Below are positions 3,589 through 64,000 of a stretch of DNA of 64,000 nucleotides, one piece after another. Position 1 is the first letter of the stretch. Each line of letters starts with the position of its first letter. The DNA lies in IMG/VR virus record IMGVR_UViG_3300020079_000009; one strand, 5' to 3'. This DNA comes from a virus. The notes under the pieces are model-generated. The model made no database searches. It had not been told where the DNA came from and saw only the letters and a program-made list of their open reading frames with translations. The translations under genes were made by a program, and so were the position numbers.

Positions 3589-4869
3589 TTAATATCCTGA
3601 TATCGTAACTGGGCGCGACTTTGTAACAATATCGCCCTGTTTTTCCATTTGGATTCTACCTTTAAATGAGAAAAAATATTTGCCACTTCCCGCTTTTTCA
3701 TATAATTCAATAATACGAGTCACAAAAGGCATAAAACCATTTGGAGTTAAAACATATTGATTCCCCAATTGAGACAAATGTAATACTTTACTTAATTGAG
3801 TTGCCAAGCAATAATTTGCCATTGCAGTGTACTCTTGGGTTTGTTTTTTAATATTTTTTTCTGCAGCGTCCCAGGACCTATAAAGTCCTTGTACACCATT
3901 TAAAAAATCAATATATCGACTTACTCTGGAATCTCCTGCACTTTGAGCTTCTCCGATAGAAACATGAGTGTTCTTTGAGCTGACATTCCAAGGGAGCTGA
4001 TTATAACCAGACTTTGCCTGGATGCCCATGACACTAACTTCTGTTAAAATGTCTTCTGCTTCACTACTAATAGATATTTGTTTATGCCCGCTATATTTTT
4101 CAATCATGTGGAGAAAATCTTTAATTGGCATGGAATAAGGTTTCCCATCTAATGTAAAATCAATTTCCACATCTGATTTAATATTCACTTTATCCATGTC
4201 CATAACTAAAATATCTTGAATCATCTGGCCACCACGACCTCTAATTGCGCCAGTAGAATAGGCTCTGGTATTTACTCTCATATTAGTTGGCATTCTTTTA
4301 TTTAACCATTCTACACCAACTTCTTCTAAAATATCGCCTTTAAGATGGTACAAAGTTCTTAATACAGTATCCAAATTTCCTTGTGGCAATTGCTTGATAA
4401 GAGCATCTAATTGGTCAATATACGTACTACTAATAGTCATATTAGCTTGTTTGCGCAATTTATTTAATTCTTTACCAAGTCCTTGAAGTTGAGTTACAAT
4501 TTTTGCTGCTAATTGTTCATTTTGAGCAATATTACCACGAGATTCTTGACTCATTACACCAGACCCAATTAAAATATTAACTCGCTGAAAAAGTTCGTTA
4601 ACACTATTATAAACAATTTGGTCATAAGGTTCCGAACTGGTACTAAGATTTCCATTATACATTAAAAACCAATTTAATTGTCTGGTTTTACTTTCTTCTT
4701 TAATAGCAGAAGCTTGGAAATCCATCAACTTCTTTAATTGATAATCATGTATTGCATTTGCATCTGGGATATCACTAAAACGATTTAAATAGGAATATTC
4801 TCCAAAAAATTCAGTCTGTTTTTTTAAGATTGGAGCATTTGCATACATAATATTTCTAAATAAAGACAT
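3589..4869 (-). CDS. hypothetical tail-module protein (426 aa)
   Basis: ORF tightly packed (3-nt gap) with the downstream gene, in the tail block. No recognisable motif. Confidence 0.35.
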   Translation of the reverse strand: MSLFRNIMYANAPILKKQTEFFGEYSYLNRFSDIPDANAIHDYQLKKLMDFQASAIKEESKTRQLNWFLMYNGNLSTSSEPYDQIVYNSVNELFQRVNILIGSGVMSQESRGNIAQNEQLAAKIVTQLQGLGKELNKLRKQANMTISSTYIDQLDALIKQLPQGNLDTVLRTLYHLKGDILEEVGVEWLNKRMPTNMRVNTRAYSTGAIRGRGGQMIQDILVMDMDKVNIKSDVEIDFTLDGKPYSMPIKDFLHMIEKYSGHKQISISSEAEDILTEVSVMGIQAKSGYNQLPWNVSSKNTHVSIGEAQSAGDSRVSRYIDFLNGVQGLYRSWDAAEKNIKKQTQEYTAMANYCLATQLSKVLHLSQLGNQYVLTPNGFMPFVTRIIELYEKAGSGKYFFSFKGRIQMEKQGDIVTKSRPVTISGY

Positions 4870-4944: not shown

Positions 4945-5904
4945 TTAGCCGTTAATAGCGGCAAACTGAGTCTCAAGACGATGGTCATCAGAAACCTCTC
5001 CGAGGTCACGGATTACCTGGATAGCAGCAAGAACTTTCTTGGAACGGTCGAATCTGGTATAATCAGGGAACGCATCCATAGTGAAAGTAAATGTACTTGG
5101 GTCTCCGCTTGAAGCCATAGTGAATGTGAAGTTAGACTGAATCTTGCAGTTAGGAATGATAAATTCTGCAGGCATGTCAACACCGCTCTGGTCACGGAAC
5201 AATGTAGCAGCTTCGAGGTAGTAGTTACCACCGAACTTATCAGCTGTAATTTCAATCTGCTGTGCGCCACCGGTACGAGCTACATAGTAGTCAACCAATA
5301 CGCTATCGAACTGGTTCTTGTTAGGAACAGTACCTAAAGTATAAGCATGGTCACCAGCCTCGCCGTGAAGGTCATCCACAGTCTGAACAGTCAACTGCTT
5401 AACATTGTTGGTATTGCCATCATGAACAGGAATGTAAGGCTCAGAGATGATTTCGCCATCTTTCATGAACATTACATATGCAAAGTTATCAGCATTGTCT
5501 GCTGGTAAGTAAGGAATCTCAGACAACTTAACAACAATATTGCCACCATCTTCTGCCAAAGTAACATCCTTAGCATCGATAGTCTCAGTCATATGCTGAT
5601 AAATAGGCTTATCAGTAGAAGCTTCAACCAATCCGGCACCAGAAAGAATCATAAAGCCTTCTGGAGAAATTAAAGCGTCTTCCATAGTGAAAGTAACAGT
5701 TCTTTCACCTTCCCATGCTACCAAACGGGAGTTACCACGACCACCCTGTGCATAAACAGTTGTTGCTGCACCTTCCATGCTTGAAGTCTTAAGGGTATCG
5801 AAATAAATTACAGGTTCGTTAGCATAGAACATTTTATTACCAATCTTCTGCGCTGCTTTAGCCTTTAAAACAACGTCGCAAATCTCACGAACACCAAATT
5901 TCAT
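4945..5904 (-). CDS. probable major tail (tube) protein
   Basis: 319-aa ORF with a C-rich third-position 'highly expressed' codon bias like the capsid gene. Located between head-completion genes and the chaperone/TMP region. Strong RBS (GGAGG) upstream. Confidence 0.45.
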   Translation of the reverse strand: MKFGVREICDVVLKAKAAQKIGNKMFYANEPVIYFDTLKTSSMEGAATTVYAQGGRGNSRLVAWEGERTVTFTMEDALISPEGFMILSGAGLVEASTDKPIYQHMTETIDAKDVTLAEDGGNIVVKLSEIPYLPADNADNFAYVMFMKDGEIISEPYIPVHDGNTNNVKQLTVQTVDDLHGEAGDHAYTLGTVPNKNQFDSVLVDYYVARTGGAQQIEITADKFGGNYYLEAATLFRDQSGVDMPAEFIIPNCKIQSNFTFTMASSGDPSTFTFTMDAFPDYTRFDRSKKVLAAIQVIRDLGEVSDDHRLETQFAAING

Positions 5905-5927
5905 AGTGCATATTCCTCCTTATTTAT

Positions 5928-6653
5928 TTAATGGATATTTTTCATCCAATCTTCAGGTTGGGAATCTGGCTTACCACCCGCAAGACGAGTGCGGATGTTG
6001 ATATCCCAATTGATATATAGCATATATCTTTCTAATAAATCATACAACTGGAACATTGTACAATTCGTTAAATCTTGCAATGACATGGAGTTTAAACCAA
6101 TAGTCAAAACTGAAAGATATCTACTAAACGAGCTTTGATTGCCACCATCTTTTTGTGCGGCAACCCTTTGACGACCTCTCATAAGCTTTTGCGCTATCTC
6201 TCGAGCCTTATCATTTGCCGGATTGAATGCTTGCTGGTCCATAGGGCCAGTGTTGGCGCAAAAGACCATTCTCAAAACATTTTGAAGTGCTTCAAAATTG
6301 GAATCGTCTACCATTTGAGAGCCGCCTTCGCTTTGAAAAAGTATGGAACGTGGAGTCATTAGAACTTTATATTTAGGAAAAAGTAAAGTTAACAACTGTT
6401 GAACGCAGACTTTTTTATCTGCCGTACTTTTATCCATCATCATCGTCATAAATATTTGAAAATTATTTATATCAGATAGAGCATCTTTGTCCTCTACGAA
6501 CATACTCTTATGTAAGCATAAGCATTGGACCCCAATGAAAAAATCATCTTCCCCCAAGAAGGAAATCTCTTTAATGGAGGGTTGGTGAAGAGTAAGTTGA
6601 CACTCTGGAATAGGAATATCAGAACCCGCCATTAAAGCAAGTCTTACATCCAT
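5928..6653 (-). CDS. hypothetical protein (tail completion / head-tail joining region)
   Basis: 241-aa ORF; start overlaps the stop of the upstream gene at 6653 (translational coupling). Confidence 0.3.
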   Translation of the reverse strand: MDVRLALMAGSDIPIPECQLTLHQPSIKEISFLGEDDFFIGVQCLCLHKSMFVEDKDALSDINNFQIFMTMMMDKSTADKKVCVQQLLTLLFPKYKVLMTPRSILFQSEGGSQMVDDSNFEALQNVLRMVFCANTGPMDQQAFNPANDKAREIAQKLMRGRQRVAAQKDGGNQSSFSRYLSVLTIGLNSMSLQDLTNCTMFQLYDLLERYMLYINWDINIRTRLAGGKPDSQPEDWMKNIH

Positions 6654-55155: not shown

Positions 55156-56961
55156 ATGATGTCAGAGAATCTATTATCGAATAAATATAAAGACCGTAGT
55201 CCGATGGATACAGTCAATTTAATTAAATCATTTTTCGAGAATAGTGGATTTAAAATCGGACATACAATGTTCCAGACTGAAATTGGGACTTGGACTTGCC
55301 ATGTAACTATTTCTTCCAATAACTTAGAGGTTCTTGGTAGTAATGGCAAGGGTATGACTCAAGAATTCGCTTTGGCCAGCGGCTACAGTGAAATGTTCGA
55401 GCGTTTTTCCAATAAAGTAGGATATATTAACAATCCTTACTTCCAAAGAAAAATTAGAGCCTTGAGAGAAGACTATGTATATTGTCCAGAAGAAAAGAAG
55501 ATTGATGCTTATGATATGGTTATTGAGAATCATATTTTAGACCAATATTATAGAACATTCTTGAAATCTGATGAAAATATGAAGAAGTTCTTTGAAATCA
55601 ATTATCCTGATGGCGCAATCGGCGTTCCTTTTACAAGCGTTTCTGACCCCACAAAGGTTAAGTATTTAGACCCAAGTATTATGCAGCGTGCTACTGGTAG
55701 TAATGGTATGGCGGCTGGTAATACAGAAGAAGAAGCTTTGAATCAAGGTTTGTCCGAGCTTTTTGAGCGCAAGGGAACTGTATTATTTTATAGTCAGCCA
55801 CAAGAGCATTATCGTGCGGTTGACCTTGAAACAATTACAAGAGAAGATTTTAGAGAAGCAGTAAGTAATATCGTTAATCGAGAGTTTGATTTTATTGTTA
55901 TGGATTTATCCCATAATTTTGGCATGCCAGTATTAGCTGGTTTGTTAATTGATAAAATTGGTTGTAATTGCCGTGTAAACTTCAGTGCCTTTCCAGTTTT
56001 TGATATCGCATTTGAAAGAATTTTAACTGAGTTATATCAAGGTATTGATAATATGAGAATGTATTGCTCTGGTTTTGAAGTTCCTGCAAAAACAAATAAA
56101 GCATCTTTTGTTTTGAATTTCTATGGAAACAATTATTCTCAAGCTAATTATATTCATGATGAATTTATTACTGAAAAAGTAGAGTATGTTCCTTATGATG
56201 TTTTGGCATATGAAAGTAAAGTGTTCGTAAATCCTGATAGTACAAATGTGAATTTATTGGATTACTATAAAAAGCTCTCCAAAGATTTGGGTTATGAATT
56301 CTTTTATTATAATTGCAGTCCTATCCCAAATGAGATGGCAGCTGTTTATATTTTAGGACCAGATTTTTGTTCTATTGAACAAATTCGTGAAAAGAATGCT
56401 CGTTTCATTAGTCCTATTATTGTTCAAGCATTGCTTATAATGTTTGAAAGAATGCAAAATTTAACCTCTTTAATTTGTGACTTAACTGACCATATTGGTG
56501 ACCAAGAGTATTATGATAAGCTTTATAATGAGTATAACTTATTTAGAAACTTATCTGCTAATACAAATGATTATGAACATTTTGGCGATTTATTATTGTC
56601 AACTTATGATAGCTGTCTGTTTAATGGAGAAGGTATTTCACCAATGTTCTCTGTTGAGCAAATGTTAAATAATGGAAATAATGGTCAAATTCCAACTGTT
56701 AATCCAAAGAGTTATCTTTATGGCATCCAGAAATTATATGCTTCTATTATGGTATATAAGTGTAATGGATACAGCAATAAAGAGATTAAAGATATTTTCA
56801 AAACTTTGTTTGGTACAGAATTAACTTATCCTCAAATTGAAGATGTACCTAATATGGACATTGCATTGATGGATTGTTATTTCTATCCAACTTCTGCCTT
56901 TTACAATAGTGATATTTACGATAATATTGTAAAAGCATATTTTAGCGTAAAGGAGGAGTAA
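55156..56961 (+). CDS. YcaO-domain protein (azoline-forming cyclodehydratase / thioamidation family)
   Basis: Signature GSNGKGMTQEFALASGYSEMFERFSN matches the YcaO ATP-binding motif (GKG...A..SA..E..ER). Size 601 aa. Promoter TTGACT-18-TATAAT at 55105-55134. Confidence 0.75.
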   Translation: MMSENLLSNKYKDRSPMDTVNLIKSFFENSGFKIGHTMFQTEIGTWTCHVTISSNNLEVLGSNGKGMTQEFALASGYSEMFERFSNKVGYINNPYFQRKIRALREDYVYCPEEKKIDAYDMVIENHILDQYYRTFLKSDENMKKFFEINYPDGAIGVPFTSVSDPTKVKYLDPSIMQRATGSNGMAAGNTEEEALNQGLSELFERKGTVLFYSQPQEHYRAVDLETITREDFREAVSNIVNREFDFIVMDLSHNFGMPVLAGLLIDKIGCNCRVNFSAFPVFDIAFERILTELYQGIDNMRMYCSGFEVPAKTNKASFVLNFYGNNYSQANYIHDEFITEKVEYVPYDVLAYESKVFVNPDSTNVNLLDYYKKLSKDLGYEFFYYNCSPIPNEMAAVYILGPDFCSIEQIREKNARFISPIIVQALLIMFERMQNLTSLICDLTDHIGDQEYYDKLYNEYNLFRNLSANTNDYEHFGDLLLSTYDSCLFNGEGISPMFSVEQMLNNGNNGQIPTVNPKSYLYGIQKLYASIMVYKCNGYSNKEIKDIFKTLFGTELTYPQIEDVPNMDIALMDCYFYPTSAFYNSDIYDNIVKAYFSVKEE

Positions 56962-56965
56962 CAGT

Positions 56966-57970
56966 ATGCCTACAGTAAGTCGCGGCGATAGACTATTATA
57001 CAGCGCGCAAATTAAAAATTGGTATGATAGACTTAATTCTGTAATTACGAAATATGGCGGAGGTATGGCTACGATTGCTGTTCCTTCTGCTACTCCCGCA
57101 AAAGCCTCCGATGTAAATAATCTTGTGGCTAAATTAAATGCCATGAAAGCAGATAGTTACCTGGGTTCAAATGCAAACTTATACCCAACATATTCTACTG
57201 TTGGAATAGGTACAATCATTTATGCGAATACGGGTAACCAGTTAGAAGCAGTTATTGCTAAACTGGAAACTATTAAGTGTCGTAACTCTTATACTCACAG
57301 TAACCAGAATCATTCTAATGGAACAAACAGCCAAACTTGTTCTAATAGTGCTCATAGCAATAATAACTCTAACACATCAAACAGTAATACTTGTTCCAAT
57401 AGTACAAATAGTAACACTTGTACAAACGGCTCTAATAGCAACACTTGTTCCAATGGTAGCCATAGTAACACCTGTTCTAATGGTACTCATGGAAATACAA
57501 ATAGCCACGGCTATAATAGCAATACCAATAGCAATAGTTCTCATGGTCAATCTTGTTCTAATGGTAGCAACTCCTACGGTGCACGTGGCAATGGATTGAA
57601 GCATCATAGTAGTAGATTCTATACTGACCAATGTTCTTATCAGTATAAATCTAATGGTACTTGTGGAACTAATGGTAGTCACAGTAATACTTGTTCAAAC
57701 GGAACCAATGGTAATACCAATAGTAATGGATATAACAGTAATACTTGTTCTAACAGTGCTCATAGCCAGGGTTGTTCTAATAGTGCGCACAGCCAGAGCA
57801 GAAGCCATAGTACACATGGTCAGACTTGTTCTAATAGTGCTCACAGCCAAACAAATTCCAATGTCACTAACTCACAGACCTGTTCAAACAGTGCTCATAG
57901 TAACACTAATTCTCACCAGGCTAAATCTAATGTAACGGTTATTGATATTATGAATAGTTATAAACCATAA
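56966..57970 (+). CDS. candidate RiPP precursor: ~115-aa leader-like N-terminal region followed by a Cys/Ser/Thr/Asn/His-rich repetitive core (~20 Cys)
   Basis: Core is imperfect 9-10-aa repeats (SNTCSNGSH / CSNSAHSQT ...) encoded by nucleotide tandem repeats 57290-57900. Lies immediately between the YcaO and two rSAM/SPASM genes, coupled (5-nt gap). Confidence 0.5.
   Translation: MPTVSRGDRLLYSAQIKNWYDRLNSVITKYGGGMATIAVPSATPAKASDVNNLVAKLNAMKADSYLGSNANLYPTYSTVGIGTIIYANTGNQLEAVIAKLETIKCRNSYTHSNQNHSNGTNSQTCSNSAHSNNNSNTSNSNTCSNSTNSNTCTNGSNSNTCSNGSHSNTCSNGTHGNTNSHGYNSNTNSNSSHGQSCSNGSNSYGARGNGLKHHSSRFYTDQCSYQYKSNGTCGTNGSHSNTCSNGTNGNTNSNGYNSNTCSNSAHSQGCSNSAHSQSRSHSTHGQTCSNSAHSQTNSNVTNSQTCSNSAHSNTNSHQAKSNVTVIDIMNSYKP
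57290..57900 (+). repeat. imperfect tandem nucleotide repeats (~27-30 nt units, e.g. TGTTC(T/C)AATAGTGCTCATAGCCA) encoding the precursor core
   Basis: Repeats of aatagtgctcatagc / aacacttgttccaatgg visible by eye; spurious ORFs on other frames (57255..57599, 57377..57682, 57654..57935). Confidence 0.6.
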
Positions 57971-57985
57971 GGAGAGTTTTGACAT

Positions 57986-59362
57986 ATGAAATGCGGATTA
58001 AATTGTATGAATAAAGAGCGCAGTGTCGCGGTGTTTTACACCTGCGGCACCTGCAATCTAAAATGTAGATATTGTAACATCGATAAGAATCCTGTGTTAG
58101 CTAAGATTGATGAAAAGTTAGCAGAGAGTTTTGAAGGCGATTACTATTTTAACCAAATGAAAGAGTGGTTTCCAAATATTGACCAGCTTCGTAAGATTGA
58201 AACTTGGGGTGGAGAGCCATTTTTGCATATGGAAAGAATTTATAATTTGATTACTCAAGTTATTGAATATTATCCATATTTCGACCAGTTCTTCTCTTCT
58301 ACAAACTTCTCATATCCAGAGTGGACAAATAAAGTATTTGGTTTAACTGACCAGTTTGCCAAGTACCCAGAAAGAACTTTTAGATTCACTTTACAGCTTT
58401 CTATGGACGGTCCTGAGTATATCAATGACCCAAATAGAGGTAAGGGCGTAACCAAGAGATGTATTGAAAATTTCAATAAGTTAATGGATATGATTCCTGA
58501 AAGACTTCCAAATAATGTTGTTTTAGAAATCGTATTCAAGCAGACTTTGGATACTTATTCAGTAAGAGAACTTTGCGATAAGCAAAAGATTATTGAGTAT
58601 TTCCAATTTTTTGAGAATTTTTATTTGAGAATCAATGAGTTAAATCTGCCAAATGTATTGATGTCTTGTACAGTACCTAACACTGCCGTACCTGCGCCAG
58701 TCACTAAGAAAGATGGCGAAATCTTTGCTGAGTTCTGTCGTCTTTGCAATGAAATTGAAGTTGAGAATTATAGAAACCATTACTTTAGATACTATGAAAG
58801 TATCATGCCTTATTTTGGCGAACCAATGCCTTTAAATGCAACATATGAACACTGTTCTACTTTGTGCGGCAGTGGGTCTATTATGGTTTGTTTATTGCCA
58901 GATAATCTGGTATCTACTTGCCATGAAGGATTTACTTCATTATATGAAGACTATAAGAAGTTTGCACAATCTTCTGGACGTGTTGAAGATGGTACTATTA
59001 ACTTTAACCAGTGGGTAAATGAAGATGGTCCTGTATATGTGTTGGATGCAGAAGGTTATAAAGAGCATGAGAGATTTATGGGTTATTATAACCATCCATG
59101 GTCAACTGCGCGAATGGTTAACACGACCGCTTTGATTCGTACTCTCGCTCTTGCAGATGAGATTGAAAGAAAATACTTGAATGAAGATGAAGCGTTGCGT
59201 GCTGCGCATTTTATGGCAGGTCATTCTTCTTATTGTATCAAGGATAATTATAATGTAACAGGTTCTCATAGCTTGACACCTGTTGGTTTGTTTAAGTTAT
59301 TATTAAACGGAGCGAAAGCTTATATTGAAGAAGGAGAAAGGAGAGTAAGATCGAATGGATAA
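57986..59362 (+). CDS. radical SAM enzyme with C-terminal SPASM/twitch-like Cys cluster
   Basis: CGTCNLKCRYC (Cx3Cx2C), GGEPFL SAM-binding motif, C-terminal CSTLCGSGS...C..C cluster. Confidence 0.8.
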   Translation: MKCGLNCMNKERSVAVFYTCGTCNLKCRYCNIDKNPVLAKIDEKLAESFEGDYYFNQMKEWFPNIDQLRKIETWGGEPFLHMERIYNLITQVIEYYPYFDQFFSSTNFSYPEWTNKVFGLTDQFAKYPERTFRFTLQLSMDGPEYINDPNRGKGVTKRCIENFNKLMDMIPERLPNNVVLEIVFKQTLDTYSVRELCDKQKIIEYFQFFENFYLRINELNLPNVLMSCTVPNTAVPAPVTKKDGEIFAEFCRLCNEIEVENYRNHYFRYYESIMPYFGEPMPLNATYEHCSTLCGSGSIMVCLLPDNLVSTCHEGFTSLYEDYKKFAQSSGRVEDGTINFNQWVNEDGPVYVLDAEGYKEHERFMGYYNHPWSTARMVNTTALIRTLALADEIERKYLNEDEALRAAHFMAGHSSYCIKDNYNVTGSHSLTPVGLFKLLLNGAKAYIEEGERRVRSNG

Positions 59363-60806
59363 TGTGATTGTAAATATTCATGACGACAAGGAATTATTCC
59401 AGCAAGAACAAGATAAATTATTGCAAGTTGTATTAGATAAACGATTCTTCTCTACTTGGAGACCAAATAATAGTGCGATGGATGTACCTCGTGGGCATGT
59501 GGAGTTATTTATTACTTCTCAGTGTAACCAAAAGTGTGAGTATTGTTATTTGGTTAAATATCCTGACCTTTATCCAAAGGAATTTTTAAACCCAGAGCAA
59601 ATCAAAGAAAACCTTAAAATTTTTTATGACTGGGTTATTGCAAATAATTATTGTATTCCTCAGATTGAGTTTTATACTGGCGAAATCTGGCATAGTAAAT
59701 TTGGAACTGATATCTTAGATATTACTTTTGATTATCTTTTAGCTGGATTGCAAGTGCGCCAGTTCATGATTCCTTCTAACTGCAGTTTTCTTAAAGACCG
59801 TAAGAGAGCTGCAATTATTCAAGGATATATTGACAAGTTTAGAGCTATTGGTGTTCCACTTATTTTCTCTATCTCTATTGATGGAAAGTATGTAGATAAT
59901 GATATTCGCCCTAATGTCAATGCGAAAATTACTCATGATGATGACTTTTATGATATGGCGTTTTCATTTTCTAAGCACAATGGATTTGGCTTCCATCCGA
60001 TGATTGCGGCAGCCTCTATTGAAATGTGGCCAGAGAATTATAAGTGGTGGAAAGAAATGCTAAAGAAATATGGCTTGACTCTTGGAGAAGTTATGATGCT
60101 TGAAGTAAGAAATGGAGACTGGACTCCAGAGAAAATTCAAGCGTTCTTAGATTTTGAGGATATTTTAATTGATGGTCTTTTAGAGCGTAATGATAATGAC
60201 CCAATTAAAGCTTGTATTTTCGGTTTTGGTATTAACCAAACTTATTATGATAAGAATTTGTTAGCTATCGAAGACGAAGAAATGAGTGCATATACGCCTT
60301 ATCATTTAGCAGAAACTGATGAATTTCTTGGATGTACGTTACAAAATACTTTAACAGTTCGTTTAGGTGATTTAGCAATTTGCCCTTGCCATAGAACTGC
60401 TTATAATAAAAATCTATATGGTTGGTTTACTGTTGAAAATGGGGCAATTACAGGTATTAAATCTAATAATCCTCATCAGGCTATTAGAAATCTAATGGTA
60501 AATAACCATGTGGGAACTTTAGGTTGCGACTCTTGTTTCTATAATAGATATTGTATGGGTGGATGCCCTGGTCAACAAATGGAAAAATTTAATGACCCAT
60601 ATCATTTAGACCCTACGGTTTGCAACTTCTTAAAGAGTAAGATTAAGCATTTGATTAAACGTTACCATGATTTAGGATTTTTGGATTGGTTAAAAGAAAA
60701 CATTTCTCCTTACCATGTATTTTATCCAAATGCGCAGAATCTTATTCGTTTATATGAAAATGTAATGGAGGAGGAGCGTCATGAGCGAATGGCAGAATTT
60801 AGATAA
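59355..60806 (+). CDS. radical SAM/SPASM-domain enzyme (second)
   Basis: SQCNQKCEYC (Cx3Cx2C); C-terminal SPASM-like CPCHRT...GCDSCFYNRYCMGGCPG. Overlaps the rSAM1 stop by 8 nt. Confidence 0.8.
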   Translation: MDNVIVNIHDDKELFQQEQDKLLQVVLDKRFFSTWRPNNSAMDVPRGHVELFITSQCNQKCEYCYLVKYPDLYPKEFLNPEQIKENLKIFYDWVIANNYCIPQIEFYTGEIWHSKFGTDILDITFDYLLAGLQVRQFMIPSNCSFLKDRKRAAIIQGYIDKFRAIGVPLIFSISIDGKYVDNDIRPNVNAKITHDDDFYDMAFSFSKHNGFGFHPMIAAASIEMWPENYKWWKEMLKKYGLTLGEVMMLEVRNGDWTPEKIQAFLDFEDILIDGLLERNDNDPIKACIFGFGINQTYYDKNLLAIEDEEMSAYTPYHLAETDEFLGCTLQNTLTVRLGDLAICPCHRTAYNKNLYGWFTVENGAITGIKSNNPHQAIRNLMVNNHVGTLGCDSCFYNRYCMGGCPGQQMEKFNDPYHLDPTVCNFLKSKIKHLIKRYHDLGFLDWLKENISPYHVFYPNAQNLIRLYENVMEEERHERMAEFR

Positions 60807-61176
60807 AATTTTTGTTGACGATGCCTATGGCATTGGTAATGCTGATGAAAATTTTACTATTATCACAAAAGAATGGCTTGCTAATGGTGGAAAGATTGAT
60901 TCTTTCACTCAAGAAATTATTAAGCCAGTAGACAATATCGCTGTTATGGCAGAAGATATGGAAGGTACAACTCCTCTTCTTTGGAAAGAAAGATTGATTT
61001 TCTATTCCGATGGCAGAATGGAAAGATACTTCTTGTATAATAGATATCCTTCTGATATAATTCGCACAAGGGTTAATAGCCGTCCAGCTTTAACCCCTTG
61101 GGCACAAACCATTATGCAAGAGGCAATTTATGAAGAGAGATGTCGAGTTGAAGATTTGCAAAACGAAGATTGGTAA
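60781..61176 (+). CDS. hypothetical protein (131 aa) downstream of and overlapping rSAM2
   Basis: Start overlaps the rSAM2 stop by 26 nt. Confidence 0.4.
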   Translation: MSEWQNLDKIFVDDAYGIGNADENFTIITKEWLANGGKIDSFTQEIIKPVDNIAVMAEDMEGTTPLLWKERLIFYSDGRMERYFLYNRYPSDIIRTRVNSRPALTPWAQTIMQEAIYEERCRVEDLQNEDW

Positions 61177-61236
61177 ATTGATTTTTAATTAAAAATATGG
61201 TATAATTATAGTAATAAGAGAAAAAGGAGATTTTTT

Positions 61237-62187
61237 ATGGCGAACTTTTATTGTCCAGGCTTTTATGAAAATGCCGTTATGTATAAAAGACTCTTATGGT
61301 TCCAAAAGTATTATCCACAGTGTTGGGTAGATGGCGCAAAAATTACTCATATTTTTGGTTGTTTCCCTAACTGTATTTGGAATGGAGGGTCTACTTGGAT
61401 TCAATATCCGCCCGCAAAACCTATCATGAGAAATGTATTCCAGTGGTATAAAGACCAAGGTATTATTATTCAGTTAACTTTTACTAATCCTATGTTACAG
61501 GAAACTGATGTATACGACAGATATGCTAATTGCATTTTAGATGTTGCGGTTGAGATTTTAGGATATGAGCAATTAGAAGTATTAGTTTCTGCTCAGTGTC
61601 TTGAGGATTATATTCGCAATAAATATCCAAAAGCCAATGTAACAAGAAGTATTGTTGGTGCAACTGGCTGCGAAAACACTTGTAGCACAATTGAAGATTA
61701 TGTCGCGCTATTGGATAAATATCCTCGTATTGTTGTACCTCGTAAAAAGGTTAATGATATTGATTTTATTCAAGGCTTTCCTCAGGAATTAAAGCATCGA
61801 GTAGAGTTACTTTGTACAGATGCCTGTCCCATTGATTGCCCTCGAATTTATCAGCATTATACTAAATTAGGTATGGAACAGTTATGGGAAGATGTTTCTT
61901 TTGAAGAAGTAATTTGCACGGGTTTTGCAAAAGATAATCCTTTCCATGAAGCAACTTATTCTCAATATAAGATTACTCCACCTGAAATTGCGGCATATGA
62001 AGCTCTTGGATGGTCAGAGTTCAAAATTAGCGGTCGTATTTCTACTGCGGCAGCTCCTTTGAGATTGGTACCATATTTAATTAAGCCAGAATTTTGGGAA
62101 GATGTTTATATCAACATTTATTTCGATATTTTTGGTGATAATAGCTATTTCCCAGACTATGATTTCTGGTCAGATTCAACTATTTAA
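61237..62187 (+). CDS. hypothetical Cys-containing protein (316 aa)
   Basis: Class-2-like promoter at 61171-61204, RBS AAAGGAGA. Confidence 0.45.
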   Translation: MANFYCPGFYENAVMYKRLLWFQKYYPQCWVDGAKITHIFGCFPNCIWNGGSTWIQYPPAKPIMRNVFQWYKDQGIIIQLTFTNPMLQETDVYDRYANCILDVAVEILGYEQLEVLVSAQCLEDYIRNKYPKANVTRSIVGATGCENTCSTIEDYVALLDKYPRIVVPRKKVNDIDFIQGFPQELKHRVELLCTDACPIDCPRIYQHYTKLGMEQLWEDVSFEEVICTGFAKDNPFHEATYSQYKITPPEIAAYEALGWSEFKISGRISTAAAPLRLVPYLIKPEFWEDVYINIYFDIFGDNSYFPDYDFWSDSTI

Positions 62188-62280
62188 TCTTAATTGATTT
62201 TTATAAAAAATAATGTTATAATATATATGTAAAGATGATAAAAGAATATAAGGCACATACAGCAAAATGCTTAAAAAGCT

Positions 62281-62352
62281 AATGCAATAGTCAAACGGTT
62301 AAGACATTACCCTTCCACGGTGAAAGTTGGGGTTCGATTCCCCATTGCGATT
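62281..62352 (+). tRNA. tRNA-Gly(UCC) (no encoded CCA; one A-A mismatch in acceptor stem)
   Basis: Manual fold: acceptor AATGCAA/TTGCGAT, U8A9, D-loop with GG, anticodon stem TTACC/GGTGA, loop CTTCCAC (U33, UCC, A37), T-arm TGGGG-TTCGATT-CCCCA. Flanked by complementary AAGGCAC (62251) and GTGCCTT (62358). Driven by class-2 promoter at 62196-62226. Confidence 0.55.
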
Positions 62353-62628
62353 CAGAGGTGCCTTGGAAATAAAAATTCTTTTTGATTTTTTATAAAAAAT
62401 ATGTTATAATATATATGTAAGATAAAGAAAGCCCTTTAATCTTAGTCGTAAAGGAAAGACGCGAGTCCGGCCATCGTATTCACTGTGAGTTCCTCTCGTA
62501 AGAGGGTTGACGGTAGTAGTGCCCAGCGCAACTGGTGAGTAAACAGGTCCGAGGGTATGAATAGGTGTCACGACCACCTAACTTTCTTTGTCTGATATAT
62601 GTATTATATAGGAAAGGAGAAATTATCA

Positions 62629-62952
62629 ATGAGTTCTCTTGGTAAGTGCTATATCTACATTGATGACACGAGATATGACTACTCCAATGTTCCTGATGGA
62701 ATGGCGTTTGTTCATTGCAAGACTTACAAAGATGCTATTGAGAAACTCCGTTTCTATATCGAGCATGGAACTAAGCTGATTGTCGACTTCGACCATGACC
62801 TTGGTTGCAAGAAGAATGGTTACGATATCGCTAAATGGATTGTCGCCTCTGGTTATCCGAACATTAGGTTTAGAGTCCATTCTATGAACCCAGTAGGAGC
62901 TCAGAATATCAGAGAGACTTTGAGCCACTATGGCTACGAGGAAATCAGATGA
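62629..62952 (+). CDS. hypothetical protein (108 aa) with ~170-nt structured leader
   Basis: RBS AGGAAAGGAGAAATTATCAATG; class-2 promoter at 62384-62412. Confidence 0.45.
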   Translation: MSSLGKCYIYIDDTRYDYSNVPDGMAFVHCKTYKDAIEKLRFYIEHGTKLIVDFDHDLGCKKNGYDIAKWIVASGYPNIRFRVHSMNPVGAQNIRETLSHYGYEEIR

Positions 62953-63065
62953 AGTTACTTTTCATTTTGGGTGGCTGCGCGATGGCCGCTCTGTGTATCG
63001 CCGGAGTTGGTGCAATTCTGGGAATCATCGCGGTTCATATGCATCAAGCAAGTGAAAATTTTTGA
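62949..63065 (+). CDS. possible 38-aa membrane peptide
   Basis: ATG overlaps the upstream stop (ATGA); hydrophobic MKLLFILGGCAMAALCIAGVGAILGIIAV. Confidence 0.25.
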   Translation: MKLLFILGGCAMAALCIAGVGAILGIIAVHMHQASENF

Positions 63066-63157
63066 AAAACTGTGGACAGAGTGGGATAAAACCTACTTGA
63101 CAGTTTTCAAATGATAATACCTAAATAAAAGACCGTTACTGCAATTTTCAAATGATT

Positions 63158-63237
63158 GCCTGCCAAGCCGGAAGTCGGAGGTTCGAGCCCTTCTCCCCCT
63201 GCCAACATAGGGGGATAGCTCAGCTGGGAGAGCGCCG
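63158..63237 (+). tRNA. circularly permuted tRNA-Gly(GCC)-like gene: 3' half (nt 30-76 incl. CCA) 63158-63204, spacer ACAT, 5' half (nt 1-29) 63209-63237
   Basis: 3' half is GC-CTGCCAA-GCCGG-AAGTC-GGAGGTTCGAGCCCTTC-TCCCCCT-G-CCA. 5' half is AGGGGGA-TA-GCTC-AGCTGGGA-GAGC-G-CCG. Joined 5'+3' they give a 76-nt cloverleaf with all-Watson-Crick acceptor (7/7) and anticodon stems (CCGGC/GCCGG), U8, A14, G18G19, U33, GCC, A37, T-loop TTCGAGC. No matching partner half exists in conventional order on either side. Confidence 0.6.
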
Positions 63238-63801
63238 TTAAATCGAAAAAGCGGTCTTGTTTTTTATCGCCGGAATTGCTGAAGGAACCATAGAAGTAGG
63301 TGGCCTCCAAACCAAGGTTCCTGTTAGGGAGGCTGAAAAAACTTTTTTGATTTTTCTTAAAAAATATGTTATAATATTTATAGAAAGTTAAGAAAGAGAT
63401 TTTTACAAGACCTTTCCAAGATGTTGAAAATAAAAAATCTTTCTTGATTTTTCAAAAAAAATATGTTATAATATATATGTAAGTTAAATAAAGGATATGG
63501 AAATTCCACGAAGACTATTGATGTGATGCAAGGAGTTTCGGAGATTCGAGAGAAAATAGGAAACCATTGAGATTATTTAATGAGCATTAAAGACGACTTC
63601 AGCAACTTTTGAGGAAACATTTTTACTGAATACTTGAAACTTCCATGTTGTCTTGTTCTAAACGAAAAATCTTAATTGATTTTTTCAAAAAAATATGTTA
63701 TAATATATATGTAAGATAAAGAAAGAAATCTTACAGGTTGTGCCTTCAAGCTGTGATTTCAGCGTTGTCCTAAAACAGCGTAGAATATCAGCAACAGATA
63801 T

Positions 63802-63877
63802 TGCCCTGTAGCTCAGTCGGTAGAGCACGCGGCTGTTAACCGCGCTGTCGTGGGTTCGAGCCCCACCGGGGCAGCCA
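63802..63877 (+). tRNA. tRNA-Asn(GUU) with encoded CCA
   Basis: TGCCCTG-TA-GCTC-AGTCGGTA-GAGC-A-CGCGG-CTGTTAA-CCGCG-CTGTC-GTGGG-TTCGAGC-CCCAC-CGGGGCA-G-CCA; canonical cloverleaf. Class-2 promoter at 63672-63704. Confidence 0.85.
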
Positions 63878-64000
63878 GAGAGTTTGTTTCTTATGGTTCG
63901 CTTCTCGATGAATAAAAAGTTGAAAGCCATACGAGGTTTTAGCCGTGAGTTTCTCGTAAATATAAGCCGCGGCACATAATTTCCTTCTCATATCACAGCA

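What the first reader, a model, noticed from the sequence alone, without database searches (positions are those of the whole stretch)
63128..63266. Circularly permuted tRNA-Gly(GCC) gene: 3' half upstream of 5' half, junction in the anticodon stem (29/30)
Seen in sequence: 63158-63204 encodes tRNA positions 30-76 (GC-CUGCCAA-GCCGG-AAGUC-T-arm-UCCCCCU-G-CCA). After a 4-nt spacer (ACAT), 63209-63237 encodes positions 1-29 (AGGGGGA-UA-D-arm-G-CCG). Joined in the order 5' half + 3' half they form a 76-nt cloverleaf with 7/7 Watson-Crick acceptor pairs, a 5/5 anticodon stem, all invariant nucleotides (U8, A14, G18G19, U33, A37, T54-C56, A58) and anticodon GCC. Neither half has a partner in conventional order on either side. 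The unit is bracketed by the complementary AAGACCG (63130) and CGGUCUU (63252) followed by U6, and by local leader/trailer pairing (GAUU/AAUC, UUUUC/GAAAA) that would bring the 29 and 30 ends together. Established knowledge: permuted tRNA genes are known from Cyanidioschyzon merolae and split tRNAs from some archaea, processed via BHB-splicing endonuclease and ligase; I am not aware of a bacterial or phage example. Alternatives (inference): a phage attP-like tRNA 3' fragment fused to a 5' fragment by recombination, a DNA-rearrangement substrate that reconstitutes the tRNA, or a tRNA-like decoy. The perfect complementarity of independently located halves argues against coincidence.
Basis: seen in the sequence. 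Interest (0 to 1): 0.88.

Follow-up and report, generated by a model that had tools for sequence, protein, structure and literature searches.

The report
Phage Y-RNA-like permuted tRNA mimic
The "back-to-front tRNA gene" is real in the sequence, but it is best read as one member of a large, unannotated family of phage small RNAs that imitate tRNA and pair with a Ro60-like protein, not as a gene for a working glycine tRNA.

Summary
Positions 63158-63204 (tRNA 30-76), ACAU, then 63209-63237 (tRNA 1-29) join into a 76-nt cloverleaf that ARAGORN calls tRNA-Gly(GCC).

It is not a one-off. A covariance model finds 60 full-length relatives in phage contigs, and members in cultured phages (Enterococcus EFDG1, E. 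coli HY02). All six helices covary, including the anticodon stem split at 29/30, and so does the tertiary 15:48 pair.

The shared architecture is:
- a 7-9 bp basal stem followed by an ACAGCAA motif (ACUGCAA here)
- an anticodon-like hairpin, T arm, closed 7-bp acceptor hairpin and D arm
- the return strand of the basal stem, then a U-rich tail

The "anticodons" differ between members, and this one has an Ala/Val-like body and non-Gly acceptor features. I found no splicing endonuclease, ligase, or host tRNA match.

Verdict: a new variant of the Y-RNA/YrlA class. The main gap is that no Ro-like gene lies in this 64-kb window; the adjacent gene is a cREC RNA-repair domain.

The parts
63129..63137 (+). 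Basal (outer) stem, 5' strand, AAGACCGUU
   Evidence: Pairs 9/9 with 63250-63258. The equivalent 7 pairs covary in 59 distinct sequences, 98.1% paired, with both-sided changes in all 7 pairs. Basal stems are perfect and 6-9 bp (mostly 7-9) but differ in sequence across ~50 members.
63138..63144 (+). ACUGCAA, the window's variant of the family's single-stranded ACAGCAA motif. Candidate protein-recognition site (inferred).
   Evidence: CM alignment. The motif is present in nearly all members, including copies not selected by the search pattern. Occupies the same place as YrlA's GNCGAAN0-1G motif near the 5' end (PMC4201824).
63145..63157 (+). Leader linker (UUUUC AAAU GAUU). Can pair locally with the trailer.
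   Evidence: Seen in sequence. This kind of pairing is not above composition-matched expectation across the family.
63158..63168 (+). Anticodon-like mini-hairpin GC-CUGCCAA-GC (tRNA positions 30-40; triplet GCC)
   Evidence: Helix 30-31:39-40 is 95.9% paired with covariation. 36/60 members have 2 bp + a 7-nt loop, with U33 in 33/36, R37 in 34/36, A38 in 31/36 and positions 34-36 unconstrained.
63169..63171 (+). CGG (positions 41-43), proximal half of the split anticodon stem; pairs with 63235-63237
   Evidence: Helix 27-29:41-43 is 84.9% paired, with both-sided changes in 21-30 sequences per pair.
63172..63176 (+). Variable loop AAGUC (C48 pairs with G15)
   Evidence: The 15:48 tertiary pair is complementary in 56/60 members, against 23.6 +/- 3.5 in shuffles. 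The CM does not model this pair.
63177..63193 (+). T arm GGAGG-UUCGAGC-CCUUC
   Evidence: Helix 100% paired across the family.
63194..63215 (+). Closed acceptor hairpin: UCCCCCU (66-72), loop GCCAACAU (G73, CCA, ACAU), AGGGGGA (1-7). Predicted RNase P site between 63208 and 63209 (inferred).
   Evidence: 7/7 pairs. Family helix 96.3% paired, all 7 pairs covary. 6/60 loops begin GCCA. A YrlA with a 7-bp acceptor stem is cleaved by RNase P and receives CCA in M. smegmatis (PMC4201824).
63216..63234 (+). U8 A9, D arm GCUC-AGCUGGGA-GAGC, G26
   Evidence: Helix 99.6% paired.
63235..63237 (+). CCG (positions 27-29), pairs with 63169-63171
   Evidence: helix 3.
63238..63249 (+). A-rich trailer UUAAAUCGAAAA
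   Evidence: A/U-rich trailers are seen in most members.
63250..63265 (+). Basal stem 3' strand AGCGGUCUU, then G and U6. Likely 3' end or terminator (inferred).
   Evidence...YCU(U/A)G(U) followed by a U-rich tail in most members. The simple terminator scan does not call it because the stem is long-range.
62249..62366 (+). Paralogous scaffold (UAAGGCAC...AUACAGCAA...GUGCCUUG) enclosing a conventional-order, low-scoring tRNA-Gly(UCC)
   Evidence: Only 8 of 1304 ARAGORN tRNAs in the sequences then held (127 loci plus the window) sit in such a scaffold.
63590..63656 (+). Third scaffold copy (AAGACGAC-U-UCAGCAA ... GUUGUCUU-GU) with a ~40-nt non-tRNA insert
   Evidence: Analogous plain-insert copies occur in the L130 array beside a Ro-like gene.
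62599..62952 (+). Upstream gene: cREC (cyclic-phosphate-processing receiver) domain protein, 117 aa. Possible functional neighbour.
   Evidence: Pfam PF20274, E = 2.7e-18. All three homologous cREC loci that lie in tRNA arrays (L001, L002, L003) also carry a family member within 2.5 kb. The cREC function is only predicted (PMC7824862, PMC9503650).

Best explanation
The locus 63129-63265 encodes a ~135-nt non-coding RNA. It belongs to a widespread phage family built like bacterial Y RNAs of the YrlA type.

The 5' and 3' ends form a basal stem that carries a conserved single-stranded ACAGCAA-type motif. The rest folds into an L-shaped tRNA look-alike in its native permuted order: T arm, closed 7-bp acceptor hairpin, D arm. 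Unlike canonical YrlA, it also has a complete anticodon arm, whose stem is split where the chain enters and leaves (29/30).

Shown here:
- the fold, its conservation and its covariation
- the genomic pairing of the family with a protein of Ro60 fold (DUF2828 + vWA)

Inferred:
- The basal stem and motif dock the RNA on that ring protein, or on another RNA-repair or quality-control factor.
- The tRNA module recruits or occupies tRNA-recognising enzymes: RNase P, CCA-adding and modification enzymes, possibly host anticodon nucleases or repair enzymes such as the adjacent cREC.
- Because this copy has a 7-bp acceptor stem with an encoded G-CCA, RNase P may open the acceptor loop, as in M. smegmatis YrlA. 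That would give a two-piece RNA held together by the stems.

It is not expected to act as a decoding tRNA-Gly.
For: - Rfam's only match to the locus is YrlA (RF02553): 30.6 bits, E = 7.7e-4. Relatives in EFDG1 score 44.9 and 34.2 bits.
- CM R1 finds 60 full-length members at E <= 1e-9. Of all cells, 96.7% are paired, against 62.4% in shuffles and 36-44% in slid controls. All six helices show compensatory changes.
- The unmodelled Levitt pair 15:48 is complementary in 56/60 members, against 23.6 in shuffles. Chen et al. used the same signature for YrlA (PMC4201824).
- The most recurrent neighbour is a DUF2828 + DUF7788/vWA protein, often within 1 kb and on the same strand.
- Loci picked by the protein alone also carry the RNAs: L129 has two, L130 has an array of five.
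- In cultured phages the RNAs are unannotated and lie next to the gene. In EFDG1 they are at L131:4455-4578 and 4640-4761, before the CDS at 5016-6548. In HY02 one lies 0.9 kb downstream.
- The scaffold also encloses non-tRNA or conventional tRNA inserts. This shows that the stem and motif form the constant core.
Against: - No DUF2828/Ro-like or TROVE gene lies in the 64-kb window (tblastn; hmmsearch; hhalign; Pfam). None lies in the 4 kb beyond the related locus L001 either. The element sits 735 nt from the window end and the RNA array continues past it, so the partner for this copy is unproven.
- The Rfam YrlA gathering score is not reached, and the YrlA motif GNCGAAN0-1G is absent.
- The retrieval pattern contained GCAAWT, the T loop and TAGCT, so conservation of those three features is partly by construction.
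- The covariation alignment was fitted to the model.
- The Ro-like model has only moderate confidence (pLDDT 66.5).
- No expression, processing or binding data exist for any member.
Confidence: 0.72

Rival explanations
1. Genuine circularly permuted tRNA-Gly(GCC) gene. The transcript is cut at 29/30 out of the leader-trailer helix and ligated (circular intermediate). It is then opened by RNase P and 3' trimming to give a decoding tRNA.
For: - The joined halves give a perfect cloverleaf with all invariant nucleotides and an encoded CCA.
- The loop has U33, A37 and A38.
- The neighbouring cREC gene is predicted to process 2',3'-cyclic phosphate RNA ends (PMC7824862).
- Wang et al. raised this possibility for YrlA-like RNAs.
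Against: - Only 6/60 members encode CCA in the acceptor loop; most loops are 3-6 nt.
- The triplets at 34-36 are unconstrained across members, and differ in L134, which has the identical acceptor stem.
- In the closest relative, L001, the 30-31:39-40 pairing is lost.
- The body is Ala/Val-like. A1:U72, G2:C71 and G73 differ from bacterial GlyRS identity elements G1:C72, C2:G71 and U73 (own knowledge).
- The basal stem and motif are conserved even with non-tRNA inserts.
- Junction-proximal leader/trailer pairing is not conserved.
- No EndA-type endonuclease, RtcB or Rnl was found in the window ORFs scanned.
Confidence: 0.05
2. tRNA decoy or RNA-repair cofactor acting without a Ro-like protein. 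The RNA displays an authentic anticodon arm to soak up or report host anticodon nucleases or other tRNA-targeting defences, working with the adjacent cREC enzyme.
For: - The anticodon-loop architecture is conserved while the triplets are diverse.
- The element lies inside phage tRNA arrays.
- A cREC gene lies within 2.5 kb in W, L001, L002 and L003.
- No Ro-like gene lies in the window.
Against: - Co-location with cREC may only reflect both residing in tRNA arrays. More distant cREC loci (L004-L008) have no such RNA.
- The only family-wide recurrent RNA-binding neighbour is the Ro-fold protein; the other recurrent neighbours are homing-type endonucleases.
- There is no experimental link between cREC and any RNA.
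- This reading is compatible with, rather than exclusive of, the best explanation.
Confidence: 0.15
3. Accident of DNA history: an attP-type tRNA 3' fragment fused to a 5' fragment, tandem tRNA remnants, or an assembly mis-join.
For: Phage att sites often carry tRNA 3' portions. The two halves are separated by only 4 nt.
Against: - Sixty independent loci share the same order, with compensatory changes in every helix.
- The same arrangement occurs in finished genomes of cultured phages.
- Neither half occurs exactly in one representative genome of each of 185,579 bacterial and archaeal species.
- No integrase was found among the scanned ORFs.
- An independent contig, L134, carries the same acceptor hairpin.
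Confidence: 0.01

Closest known systems
YrlA / bacterial Y RNAs (Rfam RF02553; Chen et al. 2014, PMC4201824; Wang et al. 2018, bioRxiv 10.1101/312249)
   Same: - 5'/3' ends form a stem with a conserved single-stranded motif near the 5' end.
- The interior is a tRNA mimic in permuted order: T arm, closed acceptor stem-loop, D arm.
- The 15:48 Levitt pair covaries.
- Genes lie near, and on the same strand as, a Ro60-fold protein gene (family level).
- Smaller paralogues lacking the tRNA module exist, like YrlB.
- A member with a 7-bp acceptor stem is an RNase P substrate.
   Different: - It scores below the Rfam threshold: 30.6 bits here, at most 44.9 in relatives, against a gathering score of 69.
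- The motif is ACAGCAA/ACUGCAA, not GNCGAAN0-1G.
- The partner protein is the DUF2828/DUF7788 family, which has no sequence-level TROVE match; the similarity is by fold only.
- 36/60 members, including this one, carry a complete anticodon stem-loop, whereas YrlA 'lacks the anticodon loop'.
- Acceptor stems are almost always 7 bp.
- The genes sit in phage tRNA arrays.
- No Ro-like gene has been seen in this window.
Circularly permuted tRNA genes of Cyanidioschyzon merolae and other algae, and of Thermofilum pendens (Soma et al. 2007; Chan et al. 2011; own knowledge and as cited in 10.1101/312249)
   Same: The 3' half lies upstream of the 5' half with a short spacer between the CCA end and position 1. 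The acceptor stem is initially a closed loop. Leader and trailer pair.
   Different: - Those use a BHB motif, a splicing endonuclease and a ligase, with junctions mostly in loops.
- Here the junction is in the anticodon stem. No in-register or conserved BHB exists, and no such enzymes were found.
- The flanking scaffold is the conserved part.
- The anticodon and identity elements are inconsistent with a decoding tRNA.
Thermus phage phiLo Ro60 with Yrl1/Yrl2 (PMC12135203)
   Same: Phage-encoded Ro60-fold protein with adjacent phage-encoded Y-like RNAs. Proposed to hijack host RNA-decay machinery (PNPase).
   Different: phiLo Ro60 is a recognisable TROVE protein. Its Yrl RNAs carry the CGAA motif and, as described, a stem-bulge-stem architecture rather than a full tRNA mimic.
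Two-piece tmRNA from permuted ssrA genes (alpha-proteobacteria, cyanobacteria; own knowledge)
   Same: Bacterial precedent for a circularly permuted tRNA-like gene. Its transcript is processed into two base-paired pieces with a CCA end.
   Different: No tag reading frame or pseudoknots, and no ARAGORN tmRNA call. tmRNA lacks an anticodon arm; here one is present.

Membership tests
YrlA / bacterial Y RNA (RF02553) | Reaches the Rfam gathering score of the YrlA covariance model | tested here: not met
   30.6 bits against a gathering score of 69 at 63149-63266. Relatives score 26-45 bits.
YrlA / bacterial Y RNA (RF02553) | tRNA-like module in the order T arm, closed acceptor stem-loop, D arm, closed by pairing of sequences 5' and 3' of it | tested here: met
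   Covariation in all helices.
YrlA / bacterial Y RNA (RF02553) | tRNA tertiary signature: compensatory 15:48 (Levitt) pair | tested here: met
   G15:C48 in the window. 56/60 members are complementary (G:C 26, A:U 23, U:A 7), against 23.6 +/- 3.5 in shuffles.
YrlA / bacterial Y RNA (RF02553) | GNCGAAN0-1G Ro-binding motif near the 5' end | tested here: not met
   The window has ACUGCAA and the family consensus is ACAGCAA. The position is analogous but the sequence differs.
YrlA / bacterial Y RNA (RF02553) | Encoded within ~4 kb of, and on the same strand as, a Ro60 orthologue | tested here: inconclusive
   For this window, none within 64 kb, but the element is 735 nt from the window end. For the family, the feature is met with a Ro60-fold DUF2828/vWA protein (fold).
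YrlA / bacterial Y RNA (RF02553) | Bound by Ro60/Rsr in vivo | not testable with these tools
   Needs RIP or EMSA with the DUF2828 protein.
Circularly permuted tRNA genes (C. merolae / T. pendens type) | 3' half upstream of 5' half; joined halves give a canonical cloverleaf | tested here: met
   ARAGORN tRNA-Gly(gcc), 76 nt, on the joined sequence.
Circularly permuted tRNA genes (C. merolae / T. pendens type) | Bulge-helix-bulge motif at the leader/trailer junction, in register with the exon ends | tested here: not met
   By my reading of the sequence, W has a 4-nt bulge, a 4-bp helix and a 3-nt bulge (AAAU; GAUU/AAUC; UUA). Cutting in those bulges would leave GAUU between positions 29 and 30. 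Junction-proximal pairing across 60 members equals the composition-matched expectation (3.8 vs 3.66).
Circularly permuted tRNA genes (C. merolae / T. pendens type) | Splicing endonuclease and RNA ligase available | tested here: inconclusive
   None among the window ORFs scanned with Pfam. The rest of the genome and the host are unknown. Only a predicted cyclic-phosphate-processing cREC protein is adjacent.
Circularly permuted tRNA genes (C. merolae / T. pendens type) | Anticodon and identity elements coherent and conserved, as expected of a decoding tRNA | tested here: not met
   Positions 34-36 are unconstrained across members. L134 has the same acceptor stem but a UUUAGGA loop. L001 has a degenerate hairpin. 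The body is closest to tRNA-Ala/Val. A1:U72, G2:C71 and G73 differ from bacterial Gly identity elements (own knowledge).
Circularly permuted tRNA genes (C. merolae / T. pendens type) | Mature re-joined tRNA or circular intermediate detected | not testable with these tools
   Needs RNA from infected cells.
Two-piece (permuted) tmRNA | tRNA-like domain plus tag-peptide reading frame; detected by ARAGORN's tmRNA search | tested here: not met
   ARAGORN reports no tmRNA in the window. The Rfam scan of 60000-64000 gives no tmRNA hit.
Phage attP / tRNA-fragment remnant | Fragment identical to part of a host tRNA gene; integrase nearby | tested here: not met
   Neither the 28-nt 3' part nor the 29-nt 5' half occurs in the genome collection (one genome for each of 185,579 species). 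No integrase family was found in the scanned ORFs.

The most novel reading that the evidence does not exclude
The RNA is a true split or permuted tRNA substrate. RNase P opens the acceptor loop at 63208/63209 and the ACAU is trimmed back to the encoded CCA. The resulting two-piece molecule is then either aminoacylated as it stands or cut at the 29/30 three-way junction and re-sealed into a free tRNA by phage RNA-repair enzymes (cREC plus a ligase encoded elsewhere). That would be the first permuted-tRNA maturation pathway in bacteria or their viruses. The Ro-like protein and ACAGCAA scaffold would then serve as its processing platform.
Probability: 0.07. Interest if true: 0.92.

Novelty: new variant of a known kind. 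Interest (0 to 1): 0.55.

Why it matters
Y RNAs and Ro60 are conserved from bacteria to humans, yet the purpose of the tRNA-like module in bacterial Y RNAs is unknown.

This locus points to a large, unannotated phage branch of that system. The partner protein occurs in 707 deposited phage genomes, including Felix O1-like, Listeria, Staphylococcus, Enterococcus and mycobacterial phages. Family RNAs sit unannotated beside it in the two cultured genomes I inspected.

In this branch the mimic is more complete than in YrlA: it has a 7-bp acceptor stem and a true anticodon-type loop with varying triplets. It also sits inside tRNA arrays and next to predicted RNA-repair genes.

That gives tractable models (EFDG1, Felix O1 relatives) to ask two questions. 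What does a Ro-type ring do with a tRNA look-alike during infection? Are these RNAs decoys, processing platforms or quality-control adaptors in the tRNA-centred arms race between phages and hosts?

It also warns annotators that apparent 'permuted tRNA genes' in phages are likely to belong to this class.

Tried and rejected
- Close phage relatives of the locus by blastn in INPHARED: only chance tRNA hits.
- Exact look-ups of two window proteins in public assemblies, to extend past the window end: not on record.
- A Ro-like gene in the window by tblastn, hmmsearch and hhalign: none.
- Walking 4 kb past L001 in the related 190-kb contig: more tRNAs, no Ro-like gene.
- Sequence-level link of the DUF2828 protein to Ro60 in the PDB: none. 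Only the fold comparison showed it.
- Literature searches for DUF2828, for 'Ro-like' together with tRNA, and for 'permuted tRNA' together with phage gave no description of these RNAs. Burroughs & Aravind 2016 and the Sim et al. 2020 review are not held.
- The idea that the GC-N7-GC hairpin is a generic scaffold element rather than the anticodon arm was considered because the paralogue at 62249-62366 has one in front of a complete tRNA. I rejected it because the other scaffold-embedded conventional tRNAs lack it, and in permuted members it covaries and stacks on the 3-bp 27-29:41-43 helix.
- A loose scan for further scaffold copies in the window was no better than shuffled sequence overall (34 vs ~27). 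Only the three copies in the RNA array are credible.
- MFE folding of the native locus is uninformative (z = -1.7; the cloverleaf is not recovered).
- A sigma-70 promoter for the element itself could not be assigned. It may be co-transcribed with cREC.
Full report
**1. The observation**

- 63158-63204 reads GC-CUGCCAA-GCCGG-AAGUC-GGAGG-UUCGAGC-CCUUC-UCCCCCU-G-CCA.
- After ACAU, 63209-63237 reads AGGGGGA-UA-GCUC-AGCUGGGA-GAGC-G-CCG.

Joined 5'+3', these form a 76-nt sequence that ARAGORN calls tRNA-Gly(gcc). On the native window ARAGORN finds only tRNA-Gly(UCC) at 62281-62353 and tRNA-Asn at 63802-63877.

The unit is closed by a 9-bp stem, AAGACCGUU (63129-63137) with AGCGGUCUU (63250-63258), followed by G and U6.

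**2. The first lead away from a "permuted tRNA gene"**

A permissive Rfam scan of 60000-64000 gave a single non-tRNA match to this locus: YrlA (RF02553, "Y RNA-like"). It scored 30.6 bits against a gathering score of 69, E = 7.7e-4, over 63149-63266.

YrlA RNAs are partners of the bacterial Ro60 protein (Rsr). Their interior is a tRNA mimic in exactly this order: T arm, closed acceptor stem-loop, D arm (PMC4201824). [quoted passage not shown] A bacterial and phage precedent for the topology therefore exists.

**3. Context**

The window is a phage: portal, terminase-like and sigma-factor hits, 40% G+C. By portal sequence it is distantly related to human-gut phages and Enterococcus Schiekviruses.

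The region from about 62190 to the window end is an array of short RNA genes driven by five near-identical TTGATT-N17-TATAAT promoters.

The gene immediately upstream (62599-62952) is a cREC "cyclic-phosphate processing receiver" domain protein (PF20274, E = 2.7e-18). Its role in resolving 2',3'-cyclic phosphate RNA ends is predicted but untested (PMC7824862, PMC9503650).

**4. Relatives**

Loci found through the cREC protein showed the same kind of RNA nearby: L001 at 2685-2812, L003 with two copies, and L002 at 536-654. All were weak YrlA hits in Rfam.

A pattern scan of IMG/VR followed by a topology filter found about 60 distinct modules of the form "T arm, 7-bp acceptor hairpin, U8A9 + D arm" that do not overlap any ARAGORN tRNA.

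A covariance model (R1) was built from 12 sequences and 28 base pairs. It scores the window locus at 100.9 bits (E = 6.7e-21) and finds 60 full-length members at E <= 1e-9.

**5. Structure of the family**

On the model-guided alignment, 96.7% of cells form standard pairs, against 62.4% in column shuffles and 36-44% when partners are slid. All six helices show changes on both sides. This includes the two that make up the split anticodon stem: 30-31:39-40 (95.9% paired) and 27-29:41-43 (84.9% paired). The alignment is fitted to the model, which favours the structure.

An independent check is the tertiary 15:48 pair, which the model does not encode. It is complementary in 56 of 60 members (G:C 26, A:U 23, U:A 7), against 23.6 +/- 3.5 in shuffles.

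Thirty-six of 60 members have the 2-bp + 7-nt hairpin. In those loops, position 33 is U in 33/36, position 37 is a purine in 34/36, and position 38 is A in 31/36. Positions 34-36 are essentially random.

The basal stem is perfect and 6-9 bp (mostly 7-9) in about 50 members, with quite different sequences. It is followed within 0-3 nt by ACAGCAA (ACUGCAA in the window).

A caveat on bias: GCAAWT, the T loop and TAGCT were part of the retrieval pattern. The basal stem, acceptor hairpin, anticodon hairpin and 15:48 pair were not. The motif also recurs in copies found without the pattern.

**6. The scaffold is the constant part**

The window holds two more copies of the scaffold.
- 62249-62366 encloses the conventional-order, low-scoring tRNA-Gly(UCC).
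- 63590-63656 encloses a ~40-nt non-tRNA insert.

Only 8 of the 1304 ARAGORN tRNAs in the sequences then held (127 loci plus the window) sit in such a scaffold, several with atypical A34 anticodons.

In L130, five scaffold RNAs in tandem carry inserts ranging from plain hairpins to partial tRNA-like domains. This modular pattern matches Y RNAs (YrlA and YrlB) and not a tRNA gene whose flanks are discarded.

**7. The partner protein**

Clustering the ORFs around the RNAs showed one dominant neighbour, a 460-570-aa protein. It matches DUF2828 (best E = 9.8e-38), DUF7788 (1.2e-48) and VWA_2, and its alignment has an invariant DxSxS motif (MIDAS-type, by my reading). By hmmsearch it is present in 18 of the pattern-derived loci within the stretch held, often less than 1 kb from the RNA and on the same strand.

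All further hits cover only the vWA domain.

Loci chosen by the protein alone also carry the RNAs: L129 has two, 0.75-0.9 kb downstream on the same strand, and L130 has an array directly upstream.

The protein occurs in 707 deposited phage genomes. Some annotate it as "Ro-like RNA binding protein".

In Enterococcus phage EFDG1 two members (76 and 105 bits) lie unannotated between the tRNA array and this gene. In E. coli phage HY02 one lies 0.9 kb downstream. Rfam's YrlA model sees the EFDG1 RNAs at only 44.9 and 34.2 bits.

**8. Against a decoding tRNA-Gly**

- Only 6 of 60 acceptor loops begin GCCA; most are 3-6 nt.
- L134 carries the identical acceptor hairpin (UCCCCCU-GCCAAUGA-AGGGGGA) but a UUUAGGA loop.
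- The closest relative by neighbouring gene, L001, has no CCA and has lost the 30-31:39-40 pairing.
- The joined window sequence is most similar to tRNA-Ala/Val bodies.
- A1:U72, G2:C71 and G73 are not the bacterial GlyRS identity set (own knowledge).
By my inspection it would be out of register for a BHB cut.
- No splicing endonuclease, RtcB, Rnl or Pnkp was found among the window ORFs scanned.

The att-fragment idea fails too. Neither half occurs in one representative genome of each of 185,579 bacterial and archaeal species.

**9. What remains open**

No Ro-fold gene lies in this 64-kb window, nor in 4 kb beyond L001 in the related contig. The element is 735 nt from the window end, so the partner of this particular copy is inferred from the family.

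The role of cREC, of the anticodon-type loop with variable triplets, and of possible RNase P opening of the 7-bp acceptor stem (as in M. smegmatis YrlA, PMC4201824) is untested.

**10. Verdict**

The locus is a member of a Y-RNA/YrlA-like family of phage tRNA mimics that Rfam does not capture at threshold and that I did not find described in the held literature. It differs from YrlA in four ways: a different 5' motif, a Ro-fold partner from the DUF2828 family, 7-bp acceptor stems, and a complete split-stem anticodon arm.

I rate it a new variant of a known kind, with interest 0.55. The residual chance that it matures into a real tRNA is about 5-7%.

Noticed in passing
window 62249-62366 (+): The same basal-stem + ACAGCAA scaffold encloses the conventional-order tRNA-Gly(UCC) (62281-62353; Rfam 51.9 bits, A2/A71 mismatch, U73), preceded by a GC-UUAAAAA-GC mini-hairpin. 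The scaffold family therefore has two topologies. L001 likewise has a scaffolded tRNA-Gly(ACC).
   Followed up: partly
window 63590-63656 (+): A third scaffold copy (AAGACGAC-U-UCAGCAA ... GUUGUCUU-GU) with a ~40-nt non-tRNA insert, reminiscent of YrlB-type Y RNAs. 'AUCAGCAAC' also lies 8 nt upstream of tRNA-Asn (63802-63877).
   Followed up: partly
window 62194-63704 (+): Five near-identical strong promoters (TTGATT-N17-TATAAT with TG, at 62194, 62382, 63347, 63444 and 63676) drive an array of short RNA genes. Several transcripts (e.g. 63376-63440 and 63473-63590) have no assigned function.
   Followed up: no
window 62420-62598 (+): A ~180-nt G+C-rich leader lies between a promoter and the cREC start codon. 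It has no Rfam match and could be a structured regulatory RNA.
   Followed up: no
window 62949-63066 (+): A small hydrophobic ORF (~38 aa) overlaps the cREC stop codon (ATGA), directly upstream of the element. An ORF on the opposite strand (63107-63310) overlaps the RNA and is probably spurious.
   Followed up: no
window 63266-63340 (+) and L001 2815-2925: The sequence just downstream of the element appears to be conserved between the window and L001 (GUAGGU..CCAAACC..GUUAGGGA). It may be another small RNA.
   Followed up: no
L002 2382-2973: A ROOL RNA (RF03087, 316.6 bits) lies immediately upstream of that phage's cREC gene, with a scaffold-family RNA at L002:536-654. This links cREC, large ornate RNAs and tRNA arrays.
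   Followed up: no
window 55156-60806 (+): A YcaO cyclodehydratase (E = 1.7e-30) is followed by two weak radical-SAM-like ORFs, with an M28/M20-like peptidase and a Na/sulfate-symporter-like protein upstream. This is a RiPP-like or metabolic cluster, unusual in a phage.
   Followed up: no
L131 (Enterococcus phage EFDG1, KP339049) 1125-1475: Rfam finds a tmRNA (140.6 bits) inside the EFDG1 tRNA array. It is not annotated in the record stretch shown.
   Followed up: no
L130 896-1300: A tandem array of five ACAGCAA-scaffold RNAs lies directly upstream of a DUF2828 gene in a contig labelled as a PVC-group bacterium MAG. One insert is a 4-bp stem with a CUGUUAA loop (anticodon-loop-like) and no other tRNA parts.
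   Followed up: partly
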